A stretch of DNA of 26,501 nt from Patescibacteria group bacterium (GCA_018900295.1 JAHIGH010000171.1:1-26501); one strand, 5' to 3'; shown: positions 3,392 through 13,531, counted from the stretch's first letter. Program-made: numbers and translations. Notes: generated by a model from the sequence alone, not told the origin.

Positions 3392-3976
3392 ATGAATAAA
3401 AGAATCTTCTCGCTCCTGATTCTGCCATTTTTTCTTCTTTCCCTTTTTCTTTTTACAAAAACAACTCACGCATTTTCTCTTGGAGATGTCGTAAATGGAG
3501 TTAAAAGTCTAATTTCTCCCGCTAAAAAAGAACTCAAAATTGACTCAAGCATCACCCTTGTCCCCGAAGGGGACGTGAATAAGAACGGACAAATAGACGC
3601 AGGCGACACCGTACGGTTTACCTACACACTGACCAATACCACAGACCGGGAATACTCCTTCGCGACCCTCAAGACCAACATCAACCGCAAGCAGCTAAAT
3701 TTCATCCACAATATTACCGGCACAGCCAGTCTCGATGATGACGGCAAGACAATCGAGATCCCCAATTTCCGCATAGCCCCCAATCAAATAGCGGCCATCA
3801 CCTTTGACGCAAGAGTAAATTACTACACCTCGGAGGATCCAACTATAGCCACAGTTCCTGAATTTTTTGATAACAATAATAGATCCATAGTCAAATCCCT
3901 CAAAAAAGAAATCAAAGCGATACGAATAAACAAAGATAAAATTCCCGGAATGATAAAAATGCAGATTAAAAAGTAA
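3392..3976 (+). CDS. Secreted Ig-like protein (DUF11/DUF7507-like domain)
   Basis: Basic-hydrophobic signal peptide ending TTHA. DVNKNGQIDAGDTVRFTYTLTNT matches the DxNxNG..D.GD.I.YT.T.TN start of DUF11-type repeats, followed by alternating beta strands (ITFDARV). Confidence 0.7.
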   Translation: MNKRIFSLLILPFFLLSLFLFTKTTHAFSLGDVVNGVKSLISPAKKELKIDSSITLVPEGDVNKNGQIDAGDTVRFTYTLTNTTDREYSFATLKTNINRKQLNFIHNITGTASLDDDGKTIEIPNFRIAPNQIAAITFDARVNYYTSEDPTIATVPEFFDNNNRSIVKSLKKEIKAIRINKDKIPGMIKMQIKK

Positions 3977-3989
3977 TTTGCTTTATGTG

Positions 3990-4065
3990 TTGTCATCCCG
4001 ACCGACCCCGCCTCGCGGGGAAGTGGAGGGATCTCTCACGAATGCGAGTTCGCACGGAATGACAA
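3990..4065. repeat. REP-like inverted-repeat element with nested GC hairpin
   Basis: Terminal IR TTGTCATCCCG (3990-4000) / CGGAATGACAA (4055-4065), 1 mismatch. Internal CCCCGC-CTC-GCGGGG hairpin (4006-4020) interrupts GTCATCCCGACCGA|AGTGGAGGGATCT. Confidence 0.8.
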
Positions 4066-4090
4066 AATTTTGGGTGGTACAAATTAAACC

Positions 4091-7000
4091 ATGAAAATCA
4101 AAAAACTAATCAAACAAATTGCCAAGACGGCATTCGTCTTCTGTTTGATTGTTCAACTGATAGCAACCCCGATCATTCCCGCTTTCCGGACGCCAATCAC
4201 TCCAAAATTAGTCCAAGCCGCAGGAGAAAGCTGCGGCGGTGGGGGAGGCAGTCCGACAGGCGCCAATTTACAAGCCCGAGTAGGCGGCGTCGCCCTCGAC
4301 CAGGCCGCTACTTTCCTCGCGGATATGACAGAAATTACAGGCGCGTATTACGATGCTGATCAGGACAGAATAGTCTTTGTAGGTAAAAAAAATACCTCTG
4401 CCCCAAAATTCGACAAGGATGATCTGGCAGTCGCGATCAAAGCACTGGTTTTCAACAATCACATTCCTTCAGTAAGCATGGAATTTAAAGATCCCAACAA
4501 CCCGTTTGGGGATACCAATTTAAATGTTTTATATTATGGCGGTATCGAAGATACTAGGTTTGGACAAGTAATGGTAGAAGCGGATTACAAAATGAAACAA
4601 TATTCCCTAGGATATAATGAAAATGGGCAAAAGATTGTTTCATCGGTTCCCGGATACAAGTCTCATTTTGATCGCTTTCTTGAAAAAAATCCCGACCCGA
4701 ATAAACGCTCACGTTCCCGCTGGTGGATTTCTCCCAAACTGGTAACTCTGAAAGAAGACGATACCGCAAAGTCATTTATCTTTGACCAGGTTCAAATGCA
4801 AATAGAAACAGAAGGGTTATTTCCCGATAATGACCCTGCCTGGAATCAGGCGGCCATTGAATTTGCGCAGCAACAAACAGATCTCTATGATCAGTTTGCC
4901 CAGGAAACCCCAAGTTATGCGCAAACAAAACAACTCGCAAAAATTGTCGGAGTGGTTAAATGGATCAAAGATAATAGTATTGTCAACAACTTTGAATGGG
5001 CTCGTGAGTATCAGCCAAAATATATAAATACTCCGCGGGAAATAAGAAGATTGACTACTCCTCAGGTTGAAAAAAATGGCATACTTTGGAGTATTACAGG
5101 CGGTGTAACATACGATGAACCAAATACATATACACCTGACAATGGTACCTCGACAAGCTTGAAGAACTCCTCCGAAGCGGTTGCCACTCCCACGGAACAA
5201 ATACACTGGACATTCACCAAAGACGGACAAACATATGATTCAGTTGCGGTAGCTGCCAACGCATTCAGAACACTTGGCGCATACACCACATCCTCAGTTG
5301 ATATAAATTTCCCGACCTCAGGCGATTTACCCCTTGCTTTTACGAGATCCTATTCTTCCTATTCAGGCGGACAAGATGGAATCGGCAGGGGTTGGGAAAT
5401 ACTCCCCGCCAGGTTATTTGACAATAAAACCGGCTGGTATGTGAATTGTACAACCGGCTCGCTTCCCGGTAATCATCCTTCGAAATTAGGATTCCAGACC
5501 GGGTCCGGCTTGTATGAAACCTTTACTTTTACAAGCTGCACTACCGGCTATAAAGCCGACAAACCAGAATACCATTCTCAAATATTTCATAATACAGACA
5601 GCTCATTCACCGCAAGACTTAAAAATCAAACCGAATATGTCTTTGATTCAGGGTTTAATCTGACAAAGATAAAAGACAAGAACGGTAATACAATTTCGTA
5701 TACTTATGATTCGCAAAATAAATTAACCGGCATTTCCGATAACAAGAGCCATGTATTAACCGTATCATACAATTCTCAAAATCTTGTTTCATCAATCAGT
5801 GATTGGAATAGTAGAGTTGTTGCTTATGGATATGACGTGCAGGGGAATCTGACAAGCGTCACAGATCCCAAAGGACAAATAACCAAATACTCTTATGATA
5901 ACAATAATAAATTAATAAGCACCGTTAATAGACTAGGACAAACCATCCTGGAAAATACCTATACTCCTGAAGCAAAAATTGCAAGTCAGAAAGACGCTGA
6001 TGGTACAATCACTACTTACTCCTATGATAATCAAAACAAGAAAATTTCTCTTACAGATAATTCAGGCAGATCATCAAATATAACCTATGATGACAAAGCC
6101 AGAATTCTGCAACAATCAGATCCCTATGCAAAAAATATCATCTACACTTATGGCACGGAATATGCTCCGCTCACGATTACCAATAAAAACAGTAATAAAA
6201 TAACCAACACATATGATGTCAATGGAAATTTGACTTCTTTAACATTGCCTACAACCAAAAAGATTACCTACGAGTATGACACAAAAAATAGACTAACAAG
6301 AATCCTTGACGCCAGATACGGTACTACCTCCAAAGAGACAAAGTTTACTTACGATACAAACGGTAATCTCACCCAGACAAATGAAGCGGCTATTCTCACC
6401 AATTACACCTACGACCCATACGGCGAAATGCTGACGCTTGCCAATAATGCCAACCAAAAAACAACCTATACCAGAGATGCTCTTGGTAATATTTTGACAG
6501 CTTTGGATCCTTTGAATAATACCGTAAGTTATGAATACGACACTTTGGGAAGACTTACCAAACAAACAGATCCTGATGGTAAAATAGTTACTTTTGCTTA
6601 CGACCAAAATAACAATGTAGTGAGCAGAACCGATGCCTCAGGAACAACCCTGTATGTTTACGATTCCGAAAACAGACTGCAAAAATCAACTCTTCCCAAC
6701 AACAATGTTACAGAATTTGCTTACAATACTTCAAGTTCATTAAATTCGGTTAAAAATGCGTTAGGAAGTCTCACCTCCTACGGTTATGACACTTACCAAA
6801 ATCTCACTTCCCAACAGGACGCTCTGAATAGGACAACCCAACATGCCTATGACCAATTAGACAGACAAACACAGGCAACAACGCCTTTGGGAAATATCTC
6901 CAAATGGGAATACGATGCTAACGGCAATCTGACAAAGAGGATTGACGCCAACAATCAATCAACAACATATACCTACGATACGCTCAACCGTCTCACTAAA

Positions 7001-12444: not shown

Positions 12445-12882
12445 ATGGCGCAGCTAATAAGCTTAGATAAAAAAAATATACTCGTGATTAGACCGACTGG
12501 GTACGAGCAAAAAGAAGAATCTTGGTTTTCGGCGGAAGTAAAGTTAATAGAGAAAGAAAAGAATCTCGAGAAAGGATCAGCAGCTTTTCATATTAATGAT
12601 TTTGTTGAATTAATAAATGGGATTAAATCTATAAAATCTAATATCCATCATTCATTTATTTTTGATCCAATCGAGCCTTATTTGAAAATGACACTCAAGG
12701 CAGAAAATAATCAATATATTGCAGATATATCATTTTGTAAAGGCCCTATCTTTGAAGAATCAAAGTACAAAAAAATGAAAATTATTATATCTGAAGAAAA
12801 ATTAAACCAATTTATAAATCAAATTACTTTTGAACTCAAGCAGATAGATGCAGCACTTAAAATAAAAAGTGTTGAATTGTAA
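12445..12882 (+). CDS. WapI-like immunity protein
   Basis: 2 nt after the toxin stop. LVIRPTGYEQ, ELINGIKSI, SFIFDPIEPYLKMTLKAENNQY and SEEKLNQF parallel remembered WapI LELTPRRYQE, VLISGIETM, SISLETIEPFFFLSIDQENGNY and NEEKLESF. Confidence 0.75.
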   Translation: MAQLISLDKKNILVIRPTGYEQKEESWFSAEVKLIEKEKNLEKGSAAFHINDFVELINGIKSIKSNIHHSFIFDPIEPYLKMTLKAENNQYIADISFCKGPIFEESKYKKMKIIISEEKLNQFINQITFELKQIDAALKIKSVEL

Positions 12883-12926
12883 ACGAATCTCGTCAGTGCA
12901 GTATATTTTTTGATATATTTAATCAG

Positions 12927-12963
12927 TAGCACATTTAAAATAAACTAAGGATTTTGAGGAGGG
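12927..12963 (+). repeat. Cassette-junction motif, copy B
   Basis: TAGCACATTTAAAATAAACTAAGGATTTTGAGGAGGG. 29/37 identity with 10167-10203, immediately upstream of the next orphan RHS fragment. Confidence 0.7.
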
Positions 12964-12969
12964 GGATAG

Positions 12970-13531
12970 GGCAACTGGAGAGCGGCCAATGGCCAGGCAA
13001 ATATCCAGATGCTCTATCAAGGGCAACAGCAAGATCCTGAGAGCAATCTCTATTATCTGCGAGCGAGATATTACGATCCTGCTACAGGAAGATTTATCTC
13101 ACGGGATCCGGTAAAGGGAACTCTAACAAATCCTCAAACCCAAAATCCATATGCTTATGCCGGGAATGATCCTATAAATAATAGCGATCCAAGCGGAGAA
13201 TTTTATCCCGAATTAGCCGTTCTAGGTGGGGGATTAACGCTCGCAGGCCTTGAAGTGGGCGGAGCAATTTATGGCGCAGCAACATCATGTGGCAATCCTA
13301 TACAGGGAGCTATAGTTGGAGATCAAAATGCCATTGAGTCTCCGGTTGGCCAAGTGGCTCTTGGAGCAGCGACATTGGGAATGATGACAATGCCCCGCAC
13401 CTGGATCATCAAATAATGTTGCACAATCAACAGGAAGAACTAACCCCATGAATTCAGCAGAGCAAAGTGCTATGGAACAGTTAATGGCTAATCCAACAGC
13501 GGGGACACAATTAGGAATAAAACTGGTTTAG
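12970..13531 (+). pseudogene. Degenerate orphan RHS-CT cassette (frameshifted and truncated toxin, no immunity gene)
   Basis: RHS core YYLRARYYDPATGRFISRDP...NDPINNSDPSG in frame 13009-13416. A second frame, 13388-13531, continues PGSSNNVAQSTGRTNPMNSAEQSAMEQLMANPTAG, like the start of a known toxin tip, and then stops. Confidence 0.7.

What the first reader, a model, noticed from the sequence alone, without database searches (positions are those of the whole stretch)
3392..13531. Signal-peptide RHS polymorphic toxin system with cassette array in a probable CPR genome
Seen: a leader-bearing RHS protein, a coupled immunity gene, further RHS-core/toxin/immunity cassettes and a secreted Ig-like gene upstream. 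No T6SS (VgrG/PAAR), CdiB or T7SS gene is in the window. Known: Sec-exported RHS toxins such as Bacillus WapA mediate contact-dependent inhibition. Inference: a reduced, probably host-attached organism carries a surface-displayed toxin with interchangeable DNase/tRNase warheads, aimed at competitors or at its host. The architecture (DUF1598-like + YD + PT-CARDB + RHS) is not one I recognise as described.
Basis: partly seen in the sequence, partly recalled or inferred. Interest (0 to 1): 0.85.

Follow-up and report, generated by a model that had tools for sequence, protein, structure and literature searches.

The report
Secreted RHS toxin locus, CPR bacterium
A tiny-genome groundwater bacterium (Levybacteria, candidate phyla radiation) carries a real, intact "toxin-in-a-cage" (RHS) weapon operon with antidote genes and spare toxin tips. 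It is a known kind of system, in a recurring but undescribed layout that this scan has already met in other genomes.

Summary
Window 3392-13531 encodes:
- a secreted Ig-like protein;
- a 1750-aa leader-bearing RHS toxin, made of a DUF1598-like domain, a DUF6531 plug, a YD shell with a Pro/Thr stalk + CARDB spliced into a fixed loop, the RHS core, and a Tox-REase-7 nuclease tip;
- a linked immunity gene;
- three further cassettes: a start-less orphan with a colicin-E5 tRNase tip; a mini-RHS with its own leader whose tip is 51% identical to B. subtilis WapA-CT, followed by a WapI-family gene; and a frameshifted, truncated remnant.

The CPR placement is supported. rpoB/rpoC/rpsL lie on the same contig, the nearest rpoB genes (65-83%) are Levyibacteriota/Patescibacteria, and S5 abuts L15 with no L30.

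No VgrG, PAAR or WXG100 was found in the 82.5%-complete genome (ShlB and TcA searches also found nothing, but their controls were silent). SecY is present.

The architecture is not unique:
- 133 full-length homologues, mostly CPR with distant chlamydial ones;
- found in 9 of 150 other genomes of the same order and 2 of 300 across the phylum;
- the Ig-like partner lies directly upstream in 7 further loci;
- the shell slot holds different binding domains in different homologues;
- related strains keep the shell but lack these tips.

I found no paper describing it, but this scan has noted the family before on other DNA. Verdict: a new variant of the Sec-dependent (WapA-like) RHS polymorphic toxins. 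Delivery and target are inferred.

The parts
3346..3375 (+). Promoter-like site (TTGACA, 18 nt spacer, TG-TACAAT; 11 of 12) 17 nt before the Ig-like gene. Candidate operon promoter.
   Evidence: The region's total count of promoter-like sites is not above the shuffles, so this is only suggestive.
3392..3976 (+). Secreted 194-aa Ig-like (DUF11-like beta-sandwich) partner protein with an ordinary short leader and a GDVNKNGxIDAGD calcium-loop-like motif.
   Evidence: Pfam DUF11 E 0.003. Orthologues of 29-57% identity lie directly 5' of the RHS gene in 7 further loci.
4091..4219 (+). RHS leader (residues 1-43): basic N-region, 16-residue hydrophobic core, then a conserved extension ..IPAFRTPITPKLVQA before AGESC.
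   Evidence: Read from the sequence. The same extension occurs in the C185 paralogue and in mini-RHS leaders. No signal-peptide predictor was available.
4268..5275 (+). DUF1598-like domain of about 335 aa.
   Evidence: 1562 clusters at E<=1e-3, always just before DUF6531 + RHS repeats in the proteins checked. AF2 model pLDDT 80.7. No solved-structure match. AFDB DUF1598 proteins match at E 1e-14 to 1e-12.
5276..5398 (+). DUF6531 (RHS N-terminal plug-type segment).
   Evidence: Pfam E 8e-5 in the whole protein and 2.4e-5 in the domain alone; found in 45 of 54 family members. A 42-residue structural match to the S. bongori Rhs core, 8qjb.
5399..7480 (+). YD-repeat shell, first part.
   Evidence: RHS_repeat E 2.4e-99. 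PDB Rhs proteins 8h8a and 7q97 at E 1e-50 to 1e-44.
7481..8110 (+). Insert in a fixed shell loop: Pro/Thr linker (7481-7651), CARDB domain (7652-7993) and a return segment ending ..FTIPTVNA (7994-8110).
   Evidence: CARDB E 1e-13. The alignment shows insert-less homologues close the loop in about 7 residues, while others carry PA14, F5/8C, dockerin or giant inserts at the same point.
8111..8938 (+). YD shell, second part, plus the RHS-associated core with the aspartyl autoprotease motifs (RARYYDP..GRF ... PVNLSDPSGE).
   Evidence: TIGR03696 E 7e-21. These motifs are invariant in all four cassettes.
8939..9343 (+). Toxin tip 1: Tox-REase-7 nuclease with a PD...ExK motif (IPD..GEIK) and a Gly/Ala-rich hydrophobic tail.
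   Evidence: Pfam E 3.5e-8. 54% identical to the tip of P0008.
9345..10169 (+). Immunity gene for tip 1 (274 aa, helical-repeat-like).
   Evidence: Starts 1 nt after the RHS stop. A 35%-identical gene (E 4e-48) follows the homologous tip in an independent locus.
10189..10962 (+). Cassette 2: start-less orphan RHS core (from the GNIRF register; first ATG at 10351) with a colicin E5-type tRNase tip.
   Evidence: Translation. Colicin_E5 E 2e-28. Core repeat family D1.
10969..11295 (+). 108-aa immunity candidate for cassette 2, assigned by position only.
   Evidence: No Pfam match. No significant similarity to the genes that follow E5 tips in locus L095.
11298..11588 (+). 96-aa zinc-ribbon-like small protein; possibly an orphan immunity or accessory gene.
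   Evidence: CxxC...CxxC in the sequence. Atlas neighbours are unnamed small proteins, one Cys_rich_CPCC cluster at 0.89. Overlaps the mini-RHS start by 4 nt.
11585..12442 (+). Cassette 3: mini-RHS with its own leader, about 107 aa of shell end + core, a Gly/Ala-rich stretch and a WapA-CT-type tRNase tip.
   Evidence: TIGR03696 E 6.5e-24. At least 12 database clusters share the same leader and junction. The tip model (pLDDT 88.7) best matches B. subtilis 168 WapA at 51% identity, E 9.9e-6, with weak matches to colicin D and CdiA-CT NC101 tRNases.
12445..12882 (+). WapI-family immunity gene for cassette 3.
   Evidence: Pfam WapI E 9e-13, above its cut-off.
12970..13531 (+). Cassette 4: decayed orphan. 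RHS core + Gly/Ala-rich segment, a frameshift near 13408, a truncated toxin and no immunity gene.
   Evidence: 70% identical to P0271 residues 68-251 only when read across the frameshift.
10167..10203 (+). 37-nt junction motif in front of cassette 2; a second copy lies at 12927-12963 in front of cassette 4.
   Evidence: 29 of 37 identical. No other copy in the window or in 95 fetched loci.

Best explanation
This is a Sec-dependent RHS polymorphic toxin operon of a groundwater Levybacteria-type (CPR/Patescibacteria) bacterium. It works like WapA of Gram-positive bacteria.

Shown here:
- The gene content and domain order.
- The intact autoprotease core.
- A PD-ExK nuclease tip with a linked immunity gene.
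- Two tRNase-type spare tips.
- The conserved Ig-like partner gene.
- The absence of T6SS and T7SS markers in the genome, and the presence of SecY.
- The fixed, swappable slot in the shell.
- Strains that keep the shell but lack these tips.

Inferred mechanism:
1. The Ig-like protein and the RHS protein are co-transcribed and exported through Sec.
2. The RHS stays at the cell surface, held by an uncleaved or specially processed leader and/or by the DUF1598-like domain together with the Ig-like partner.
3. The YD shell encloses the tip, which the aspartyl protease core cuts free.
4. The CARDB domain, on its Pro/Thr stalk outside the shell, binds a surface structure of a neighbouring cell and sets target range.
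5. The tip is released into that cell, perhaps helped by the Gly/Ala-rich hydrophobic segments, and cuts DNA. The spare tips would cut tRNA.
6. Sibling cells are protected by the immunity genes. This points to competition between related cells as the main use.
7. The downstream cassettes supply other tips by recombination (cassettes 2 and 3) or by direct expression (cassette 3, the mini-RHS).
For: - Domains and motifs.
- Leader: read from the sequence.
- Secretion systems: no VgrG, PAAR or WXG100 found; SecY present.
- Immunity by conserved linkage.
- WapA-CT/WapI identity of cassette 3.
- E5 tip.
- Family of 133 full-length homologues with Tox-REase-7, Ntox33, Tox-REase-9 and Colicin_E5 tips.
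- Variable insert at one shell loop.
- Ig-like partner in 7 further loci, overlapping or within 4 nt of the RHS start in the three whose gene ends were read (C185, L087, L088).
- Runs X10 and X11 hold the shell (5759-8286) in near-identical pieces but have zero or near-zero depth over tip 1 (8505-9198) and the spare tips and immunity genes (10587-13000); one X10 contig joins 8529 to 10206.
- CPR placement on the same contig.
Against: - No experiment shows export, surface retention, toxicity or neutralisation.
- The leader has an unusual 14-residue extension, and no predictor was run.
- No wall-binding domain of the WapA kind is present.
- How any Sec-exported RHS tip crosses a target envelope is unknown.
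- Core identity between the main gene and the cassettes is only 64-77%. The longest exact stretches are 32, 15 and 12 nt, so tip switching by homologous recombination looks plausible only for cassette 3.
- The X10 joint rests on one contig of depth 2.8.
- The family is rare in CPR (2 of 300 genomes across the phylum, 9 of 150 in the order), so it is an accessory trait, not a core one.
Confidence: 0.75

Rival explanations
1. The toxin is aimed at the bacterial host of the episymbiont, not at rival relatives. The shell-borne binding domain would recognise the host surface, and the nuclease would kill or weaken the host to free nutrients.
For: - CPR bacteria that have been cultivated are obligate epibionts, according to the abstracts listed.
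- The variable binding insert would suit host recognition.
- Distant homologues occur in Chlamydiae, which are also obligately host-associated.
Against: - Each intact tip is paired with an immunity gene, and the locus keeps spare tip/immunity cassettes. In known systems that is the signature of conflict between relatives.
- The family is found in few CPR genomes, so it cannot be a general part of the epibiotic life style.
Confidence: 0.15
2. The full-length gene and the leader-bearing mini-RHS belong to a two-piece (TcB/TcC-like) cocoon system. In it, small secreted proteins carrying the shell end, core and toxin dock onto large shell proteins that lack their own end. Cassette 3 would then be a loadable cartridge and not an independent toxin.
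For: - The same genome has, on contig C266, a 413-aa protein (leader + shell end + core + barnase), then Barstar, then a 1816-aa SpvB/FG-GAP/TcdB_midN/RHS protein that ends just after a CARDB domain 85% identical to the window's.
- DNA homology to the window runs about 50 nt past that gene's TAA stop.
- Mini-RHS genes with a conserved leader recur in at least 12 clusters.
- Earlier scan notes report such split systems elsewhere.
Against: - The window's own RHS is complete and needs no partner.
- Cassette 3 holds only about 107 residues of shell end and core, against about 213 in the C266 small protein.
- No docking has been shown for any such pair.
- The C266 large gene could simply be truncated.
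Confidence: 0.08
3. The locus does not belong to a CPR cell at all (mis-binning or a chimeric contig), or it is a decaying horizontally acquired island with no present function.
For: - The genome bin is large for CPR (1.57 Mb, 275 contigs, 4.5% contamination).
- The RHS region has a higher G+C than its flanks (about 0.41-0.45 over 4-9 kb against 0.31-0.37).
- Cassette 4 is dead.
Against: - rpoB, rpoC and rpsL of Levybacteria type lie on the same 26.5-kb contig.
- Seven runs from several studies hold 97-99% of the sampled words of the stretch.
- The 1750-aa frame is intact.
- Nine other genomes of the same order, and named Gottesman-, Curtiss-, Kaiser- and Saccharibacteria records, carry homologues.
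Confidence: 0.02

Closest known systems
WapA/WapI of Bacillus subtilis (and WapA of Streptococcus suis, PMC12704120): Sec-exported, wall-associated RHS toxins that mediate contact-dependent inhibition
   Same: - N-terminal Sec-type leader, with no T6SS or T7SS.
- YD shell and RHS core cleavage motif.
- Nuclease or tRNase tip followed by an immunity gene.
- Cassette 3's tip is 51% identical to the WapA-CT of strain 168, and its partner is a WapI-family protein.
   Different: - No CWB2-type wall-binding repeats. A DUF1598-like domain sits there instead.
- A binding domain is spliced into the shell.
- A conserved Ig-like partner gene lies upstream.
- The organism is a CPR bacterium.
- The WapA-type tip sits on a 285-aa mini-RHS, not on the full-length protein.
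Enterobacterial rhs loci: a main rhs gene plus orphan rhs-CT/rhsI modules (C-terminal displacement; Jackson et al. 2009 and Koskiniemi et al. 2013, as cited in PMC13018210)
   Same: - A main gene followed by an array of core-fragment + tip + immunity modules that share the core-coding repeat.
- A start-less orphan (cassette 2) and a decayed one (cassette 4).
   Different: - Export is by a Sec leader and not by PAAR/VgrG/T6SS.
- One 'orphan' has its own conserved leader and start codon.
- The core repeats are rather diverged (64-77%).
Sec/T2SS class and TcdB/TcaC class of RHS polymorphic toxins in Zhang et al. 2012 (PMC3482391)
   Same: - Signal peptide + RHS repeats + polymorphic tips is listed there as the default export class. 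Tox-REase-7 is catalogued there among the toxin tips; colicin E5 belongs to the BECR fold named there.
- The paralogue on C266 fits the SpvB + integrin-like propeller class.
   Different: - The paper names neither DUF1598 nor CARDB (0 occurrences each).
- Its phyletic lists predate most CPR genomes.
Bacterial teneurin-like proteins (BiTLP, PDB 9IFO/9PT5; PMC13018210, 2026)
   Same: - Sec leader and N-terminal accessory domains before the plug.
- YD shell enclosing a polymorphic toxin, with immunity genes.
- No known delivery machine.
- The shell end matches 9pt5 at E 1e-32.
   Different: - No NHL propeller or TTR domain was detected.
- The profile of the N-terminal domain does not find BiTLP, which contains the TIP domain.
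- CPR bacteria are not among the six phyla reported there.
Tc toxin BC cocoon (TcB-TcC)
   Same: - A YD cocoon with an aspartyl protease that frees an enclosed tip.
- A domain inserted into the shell wall.
- A split large/small arrangement exists in the same genome.
   Different: - The window protein has no SpvB or TcdB_midN domain.
- The search for a TcA-type partner found nothing, but its control was silent.
- Immunity genes are present.

Membership tests
RHS/YD-repeat polymorphic toxins | YD (RHS) repeats long enough to form a shell | tested here: met
   13 RHS_repeat stretches, E 2.4e-99. Solved Rhs proteins match at E 2.5e-50.
RHS/YD-repeat polymorphic toxins | RHS-associated core ending in PxxxxDPxG, with the upstream YYDP..GRF aspartate | tested here: met
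   TIGR03696 E 7e-21. PVNLSDPSGE is seen in the sequence and is invariant in all four cassettes.
RHS/YD-repeat polymorphic toxins | Variable toxin domain after the core, differing between relatives | tested here: met
   Tox-REase-7 here. Homologues carry Ntox33, Tox-REase-9 or Colicin_E5. Related strains lack this tip.
RHS/YD-repeat polymorphic toxins | Cognate immunity gene directly downstream | tested here: met
   1-nt gap. The homologous tip and the homologous downstream gene co-occur in locus L087. Neutralisation was not tested.
WapA-type Sec-dependent RHS toxins | N-terminal Sec signal peptide | tested here: inconclusive
   A basic N-region, a 16-residue hydrophobic core and VQA-A are present. 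A conserved 14-residue extension precedes the site, and no predictor was available.
WapA-type Sec-dependent RHS toxins | Wall-binding (CWB2-type) repeats after the leader | tested here: not met
   No such Pfam match. A DUF1598-like domain occupies the position.
WapA-type Sec-dependent RHS toxins | Contact-dependent inhibition of neighbouring cells | not testable with these tools
   Needs co-culture competition assays.
T6SS Rhs effectors | PAAR or VgrG linkage, and a T6SS in the genome | tested here: not met
   No PAAR or Phage_GPD match in the window or the genome; the controls rang. The genome is 82.5% complete.
T7SS LXG/WXG RHS toxins | WXG100/LXG N-terminus | tested here: not met
   No WXG100 match in the genome; the control rang. 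None in the protein.
Tc toxin TcB/TcC (TcdB/TcaC class) | SpvB, FG-GAP propeller and TcdB_toxin_midN domains; a TcA partner | tested here: not met
   Absent from the window protein but present in the C266 paralogue. The TcA search found nothing, but its control was silent.
Bacterial teneurin-like proteins | FN-plug + NHL propeller + YD shell superfold, usually with a TIP domain | tested here: not met
   No NHL match. The A2 profile does not find 9pt5 or 9ifo, although both are in the library.
Candidate phyla radiation (Patescibacteria), Levybacteria lineage | Marker-gene placement, and lack of ribosomal protein L30 between S5 and L15 | tested here: met
   The best rpoB hits (65-83%) are named Levyibacteriota/Patescibacteria, apart from records with evidently mislabelled titles. 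L18-S5-L15-SecY with 37 nt between S5 and L15. That all CPR lack L30 is from my own knowledge (Brown et al. 2015).

The most novel reading that the evidence does not exclude
The leader with its conserved extension, the DUF1598-like domain and the Ig-like partner together form an undescribed surface-display and delivery module for RHS cocoons in bacteria without an outer membrane. The module would be shared, in diverged form, with Chlamydiae and other phyla. The leader-bearing mini-RHS genes would be exchangeable secreted cartridges that complete or reload shell proteins outside the cell. That would be a modular, extracellularly assembled toxin system in ultra-small symbionts.
Probability: 0.12. 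Interest if true: 0.8.

Novelty: new variant of a known kind. Interest (0 to 1): 0.5.

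Why it matters
CPR bacteria make up a large share of bacterial diversity, yet little is known about how they fight or handle neighbouring cells. This locus shows that some of them carry complete, strain-variable RHS weapons exported without any known injection machine. These weapons have a plug-in slot for binding domains that probably sets target range.

The family offers several concrete experimental handles on the open question of how Sec-exported RHS toxins reach a target cell's cytoplasm:
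- an uncharacterised 335-aa domain found in more than 1500 protein clusters;
- a conserved small partner protein;
- an unusual leader;
- shell-less, leader-bearing RHS tips.

On the other hand, the toxin tips themselves are ordinary, and the system is rare among CPR genomes.

Tried and rejected
- **Solved-structure matches for the N-terminal domain.** Foldseek against PDB, VIA-align wide and a profile search of PDB sequences gave nothing. So I could not derive a function from structure, and I could not equate the domain with the TIP domain of teneurin-like proteins.
- **Immunity assignment of the 108-aa gene.** I compared it with the genes that follow E5 tips in locus L095. MAFFT gave 27-30% identity, but BLASTP found no significant alignment, so I rejected this as evidence.
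- **The upstream 258-aa gene of locus L095.** It is not significantly like the Ig-like partner, so the pair is shown only for the closer subfamily.
- **The idea that the post-CARDB segment is a relic signal peptide.** The segment looks leader-like, and related CARDB-bearing homologues have similar R/K-hydrophobic-AxA stretches. However, the only DNA comparison shows just that the segment travels with the CARDB module. I leave the idea untested.
- **PDB sequence searches with tip 3 and the WapI-like protein.** These gave chance-level hits only. The link to WapA came from the AlphaFold Swiss-Prot search.
- **Promoter and terminator scans.** Counts were no higher than in shuffled sequence.
- **The 37-nt junction motif.** It has no copies in other loci.
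- **Literature.** Searches for RHS in CPR and for DUF1598 found no description.

Full report
**What is there**

All genes in the window lie on the + strand. The region 3392-13531 reads as follows.

- A 194-aa secreted protein with a weak DUF11 (Ig-like beta-sandwich) match.
- A 1750-aa protein with 13 RHS repeats (E 2.4e-99), CARDB (E 1e-13), Tox-REase-7 (E 3.5e-8), and sub-threshold DUF6531 and DUF1598 matches.
- A 274-aa gene that starts 1 nt after the RHS stop.
- Three further stretches that repeat the RHS core.

The four core copies share the invariant block RARYYDP.TGRFISRDP...P.N.SDPSG and diverge immediately after it. This is the hallmark of RHS tips. Tip 1 shows a PD...ExK motif (IPD..GEIK), seen in the sequence.

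**The cassettes are not alike**

- Cassette 2 is a classical orphan. Its open frame begins at 10189 in the GNIRF register, without a start codon, and the first ATG is at 10351 inside the core. It ends in a colicin E5-type tRNase (E 2e-28).
- Cassette 3 (11585-12442) is a complete small gene. It has its own leader, about 107 residues of shell end and core, a Gly/Ala-rich stretch and an 80-residue tip.
  - An AF2 model of that tip (pLDDT 88.7) has B. subtilis 168 WapA as its best Swiss-Prot match: 51% identity over 63 residues, E 9.9e-6.
  - It has weak PDB matches to the colicin D and CdiA-CT NC101 tRNases.
  - The next gene is a WapI-family protein (E 9e-13).
- Cassette 4 is dead. It matches the intact mini-RHS P0271 at 70% identity only when read across a frameshift near 13408. 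Homology stops 47 residues before P0271's end, and no immunity gene follows.
- Core-coding repeats are 64-77% identical. The longest exact runs shared with the main gene are 32 nt (cassette 3), 15 nt (cassette 2) and 12 nt (cassette 4). Cassettes 2 and 3 share 65 nt.

**Immunity**

The 274-aa gene is assigned as immunity by conserved linkage. In an independent locus (P0008, L087), a tip 54% identical to tip 1 is followed by a gene 35% identical to it, E 4e-48. The 108-aa gene after the E5 tip has no significant relative after other E5 tips. It remains a candidate by position only.

**Organism**

The window is a whole 26.5-kb contig of a 1.57-Mb, 275-contig genome of 38% G+C, 82.5% complete and 4.5% contaminated. 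It also carries rpoB, rpoC and rpsL.

- The 80 best rpoB relatives (65-83% identity) that bear a lineage name are Levyibacteriota or Patescibacteria. Many others have evidently wrong titles such as 'uncultured Gammaproteobacteria'.
- On contig C73 the order is L18-S5-L15-SecY with 37 nt between S5 and L15, so there is no L30 gene in its usual place. That trait is reported for all CPR (my knowledge, Brown et al. 2015).
- The sequence occurs in groundwater metagenomes from several studies.

The CPR placement is therefore supported, and the toxin locus is physically linked to the marker genes.

**Export**

No Phage_GPD/VgrG, PAAR or WXG100 match exists in the genome, and the controls rang for all three. 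ShlB and TcA searches also found nothing, but their controls were silent. SecY is present.

The RHS leader has a basic N-region and a 16-residue hydrophobic core. It then has an unusual conserved extension (..IPAFRTPITPKLVQA) before AGESC. The same extension occurs in three other settings:

- the second paralogue on contig C185;
- the mini-RHS of this window;
- at least 12 mini-RHS clusters from other samples.

I could not tell whether it is cleaved.

**The family**

- The N-terminal 400 residues find 133 full-length RHS proteins at 31-76% identity. The named ones are Gottesman-, Curtiss-, Kaiser- and Saccharibacteria, with chlamydial proteins at 33-35%.
- An exhaustive search finds the roughly 335-aa domain in 1562 clusters. 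In the more distant proteins I checked, it sits mid-protein, directly before DUF6531 and more RHS repeats.
- Its AF2 model (pLDDT 80.7) has no counterpart among solved structures.
- The domain profile does not detect the teneurin-like protein BiTLP, although that entry is in the library.
- The domain occurs in 9 of 150 other genomes of the same order and in 2 of 300 sampled across the phylum. It is a sporadic accessory trait.

**The slot**

A full-length alignment shows that PT linker + CARDB sits at one fixed loop, after GNITxVxExGSF and before TTFSYDxLGRIT. Insert-less homologues (about 1520 aa) close this loop in about 7 residues. Others carry PA14, F5/8 type C, dockerin or very large inserts there. 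By my count of the Pfam columns, about 48 of the 120 listed homologues carry CARDB. I read this as an exchangeable target-binding module, which is inference.

**The partner**

An orthologue of the Ig-like gene lies directly 5' of the RHS gene in 7 further loci, in six other genomes or contigs plus this genome's own second copy (29-57% identity). In the three loci whose gene ends I read (C185, L087, L088), it overlaps the RHS start or ends within 4 nt of it. The best promoter-like site of the region lies just upstream of it (weak evidence).

**Strain variation**

Contigs from two other studies were laid on the region: X10 (aquifer) and X11 (drinking water).

- They cover parts of 5759-8286 with 0-7 differences per piece.
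- They have zero or near-zero depth over 8505-9198 and over 10587-13000.
- One X10 contig joins 8529 to 10206, linking the main gene to a core of the cassette-2 type.

Near-identical shells therefore occur without these tips. This direct sign of polymorphism rests on low-depth contigs.

**Elsewhere in the genome**

- Contig C185 has a second Ig-like + RHS pair (50% identical, also with CARDB), followed by an LRR protein.
- Contig C266 has a split arrangement: a 413-aa protein (leader + shell end + core + barnase), then Barstar, then a 1816-aa SpvB/FG-GAP/TcdB_midN/RHS protein that ends just after a CARDB 85% identical to the window's.
- DNA homology with the window continues about 50 nt past that gene's TAA, which lies where the window has TCA.

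**Known or new**

Sec-leader RHS toxins are a listed class (PMC3482391), and WapA is the worked example. Bacterial teneurin-like proteins were described in 2026 (PMC13018210) in six phyla that do not include CPR, and they need an NHL propeller that is absent here.

I found no paper on RHS toxins of CPR bacteria, and none that mentions DUF1598. One paper lists 'Rhs family' genes in CPR genomes in passing (PMC10031880).

Earlier notes of this scan describe the same family, its plug-in slot, leader-bearing spare tips and split versions on other DNA. So the finding is not new to the scan. I rate it a new variant of a known kind, of moderate interest.

Noticed in passing
own genome contig C266 (L089:7254-14483): A split RHS arrangement. 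A 413-aa secreted protein (leader + shell end + RHS core + barnase-type RNase) is followed by Barstar and then a 1816-aa SpvB/FG-GAP/TcdB_midN/RHS protein that ends right after a CARDB domain 85% identical to the window's. DNA homology to window 7900-8075 continues about 50 nt beyond its stop codon.
   Followed up: partly
own genome contig C185 (L090:1932-8823): A second Ig-like + RHS pair (1718 aa, 50% identical, also with CARDB and an unnamed tip), followed by a 341-aa leucine-rich-repeat protein as a likely immunity gene.
   Followed up: partly
window 4091-4219 and 11585-11683: RHS leaders share a conserved 14-residue extension (..P.F.TP.TP.K.YA, then E/G-x-C) between the hydrophobic core and the A-x-A site. 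It is also seen in at least 12 mini-RHS clusters from other samples. The Ig-like partner has a plain short leader.
   Followed up: partly
window 10503-10690, 12020-12200, 13200-13400, 9240-9343: Gly/Ala/Val-rich hydrophobic stretches lie between the DPSG cleavage site and the toxin domain in cassettes 2-4, and after the nuclease domain in tip 1. Homologous tips elsewhere have them too. They may be membrane-entry segments.
   Followed up: no
window 10167-10203 and 12927-12963: A 37-nt motif (29 of 37 identical) precedes both leaderless cassettes, and the first copy starts at the stop codon of the immunity gene. No further copy was found in the window or in 95 fetched loci.
   Followed up: partly
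window 13604-18361: A 928-aa ResIII-type helicase has a weak intein-splicing match across residues 551-897 (E 6e-4, below the cut-off). It is followed by a 628-aa N6/N4 DNA methyltransferase, so this may be a restriction-modification pair with an intein.
   Followed up: no
window 2093-3304: A 403-aa Fic-domain protein (E 1.5e-13) lies just upstream of the toxin operon. The first gene, 345-1103, has no Pfam match.
   Followed up: no
L087:4388-7161: In the homologous locus of P0008, five tandem paralogous genes of 184-187 aa with no Pfam match lie just upstream of the Ig-like + RHS pair.
   Followed up: no
L095:1003-10241: Another CPR RHS locus (P0076, E5 tip) is followed by two leader-bearing mini-RHS genes with a different conserved leader (..SPLS.LA...C). 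One of them again carries an E5 tip, and it is followed by the same 122-aa gene that follows the main tip.
   Followed up: partly
genome table: Genomes of this order that carry the RHS family are mostly the larger ones (0.8-1.7 Mb, eight of nine at 1.1 Mb or more). Most listed genomes without it are 0.7-1.1 Mb. No formal test was made.
   Followed up: no
L001-L080 titles: Many third-party-assembled MAGs whose rpoB is 65-83% identical to this Levybacteria-type gene are titled 'uncultured Gammaproteobacteria bacterium'. This looks like a placeholder or a mislabel.
   Followed up: no
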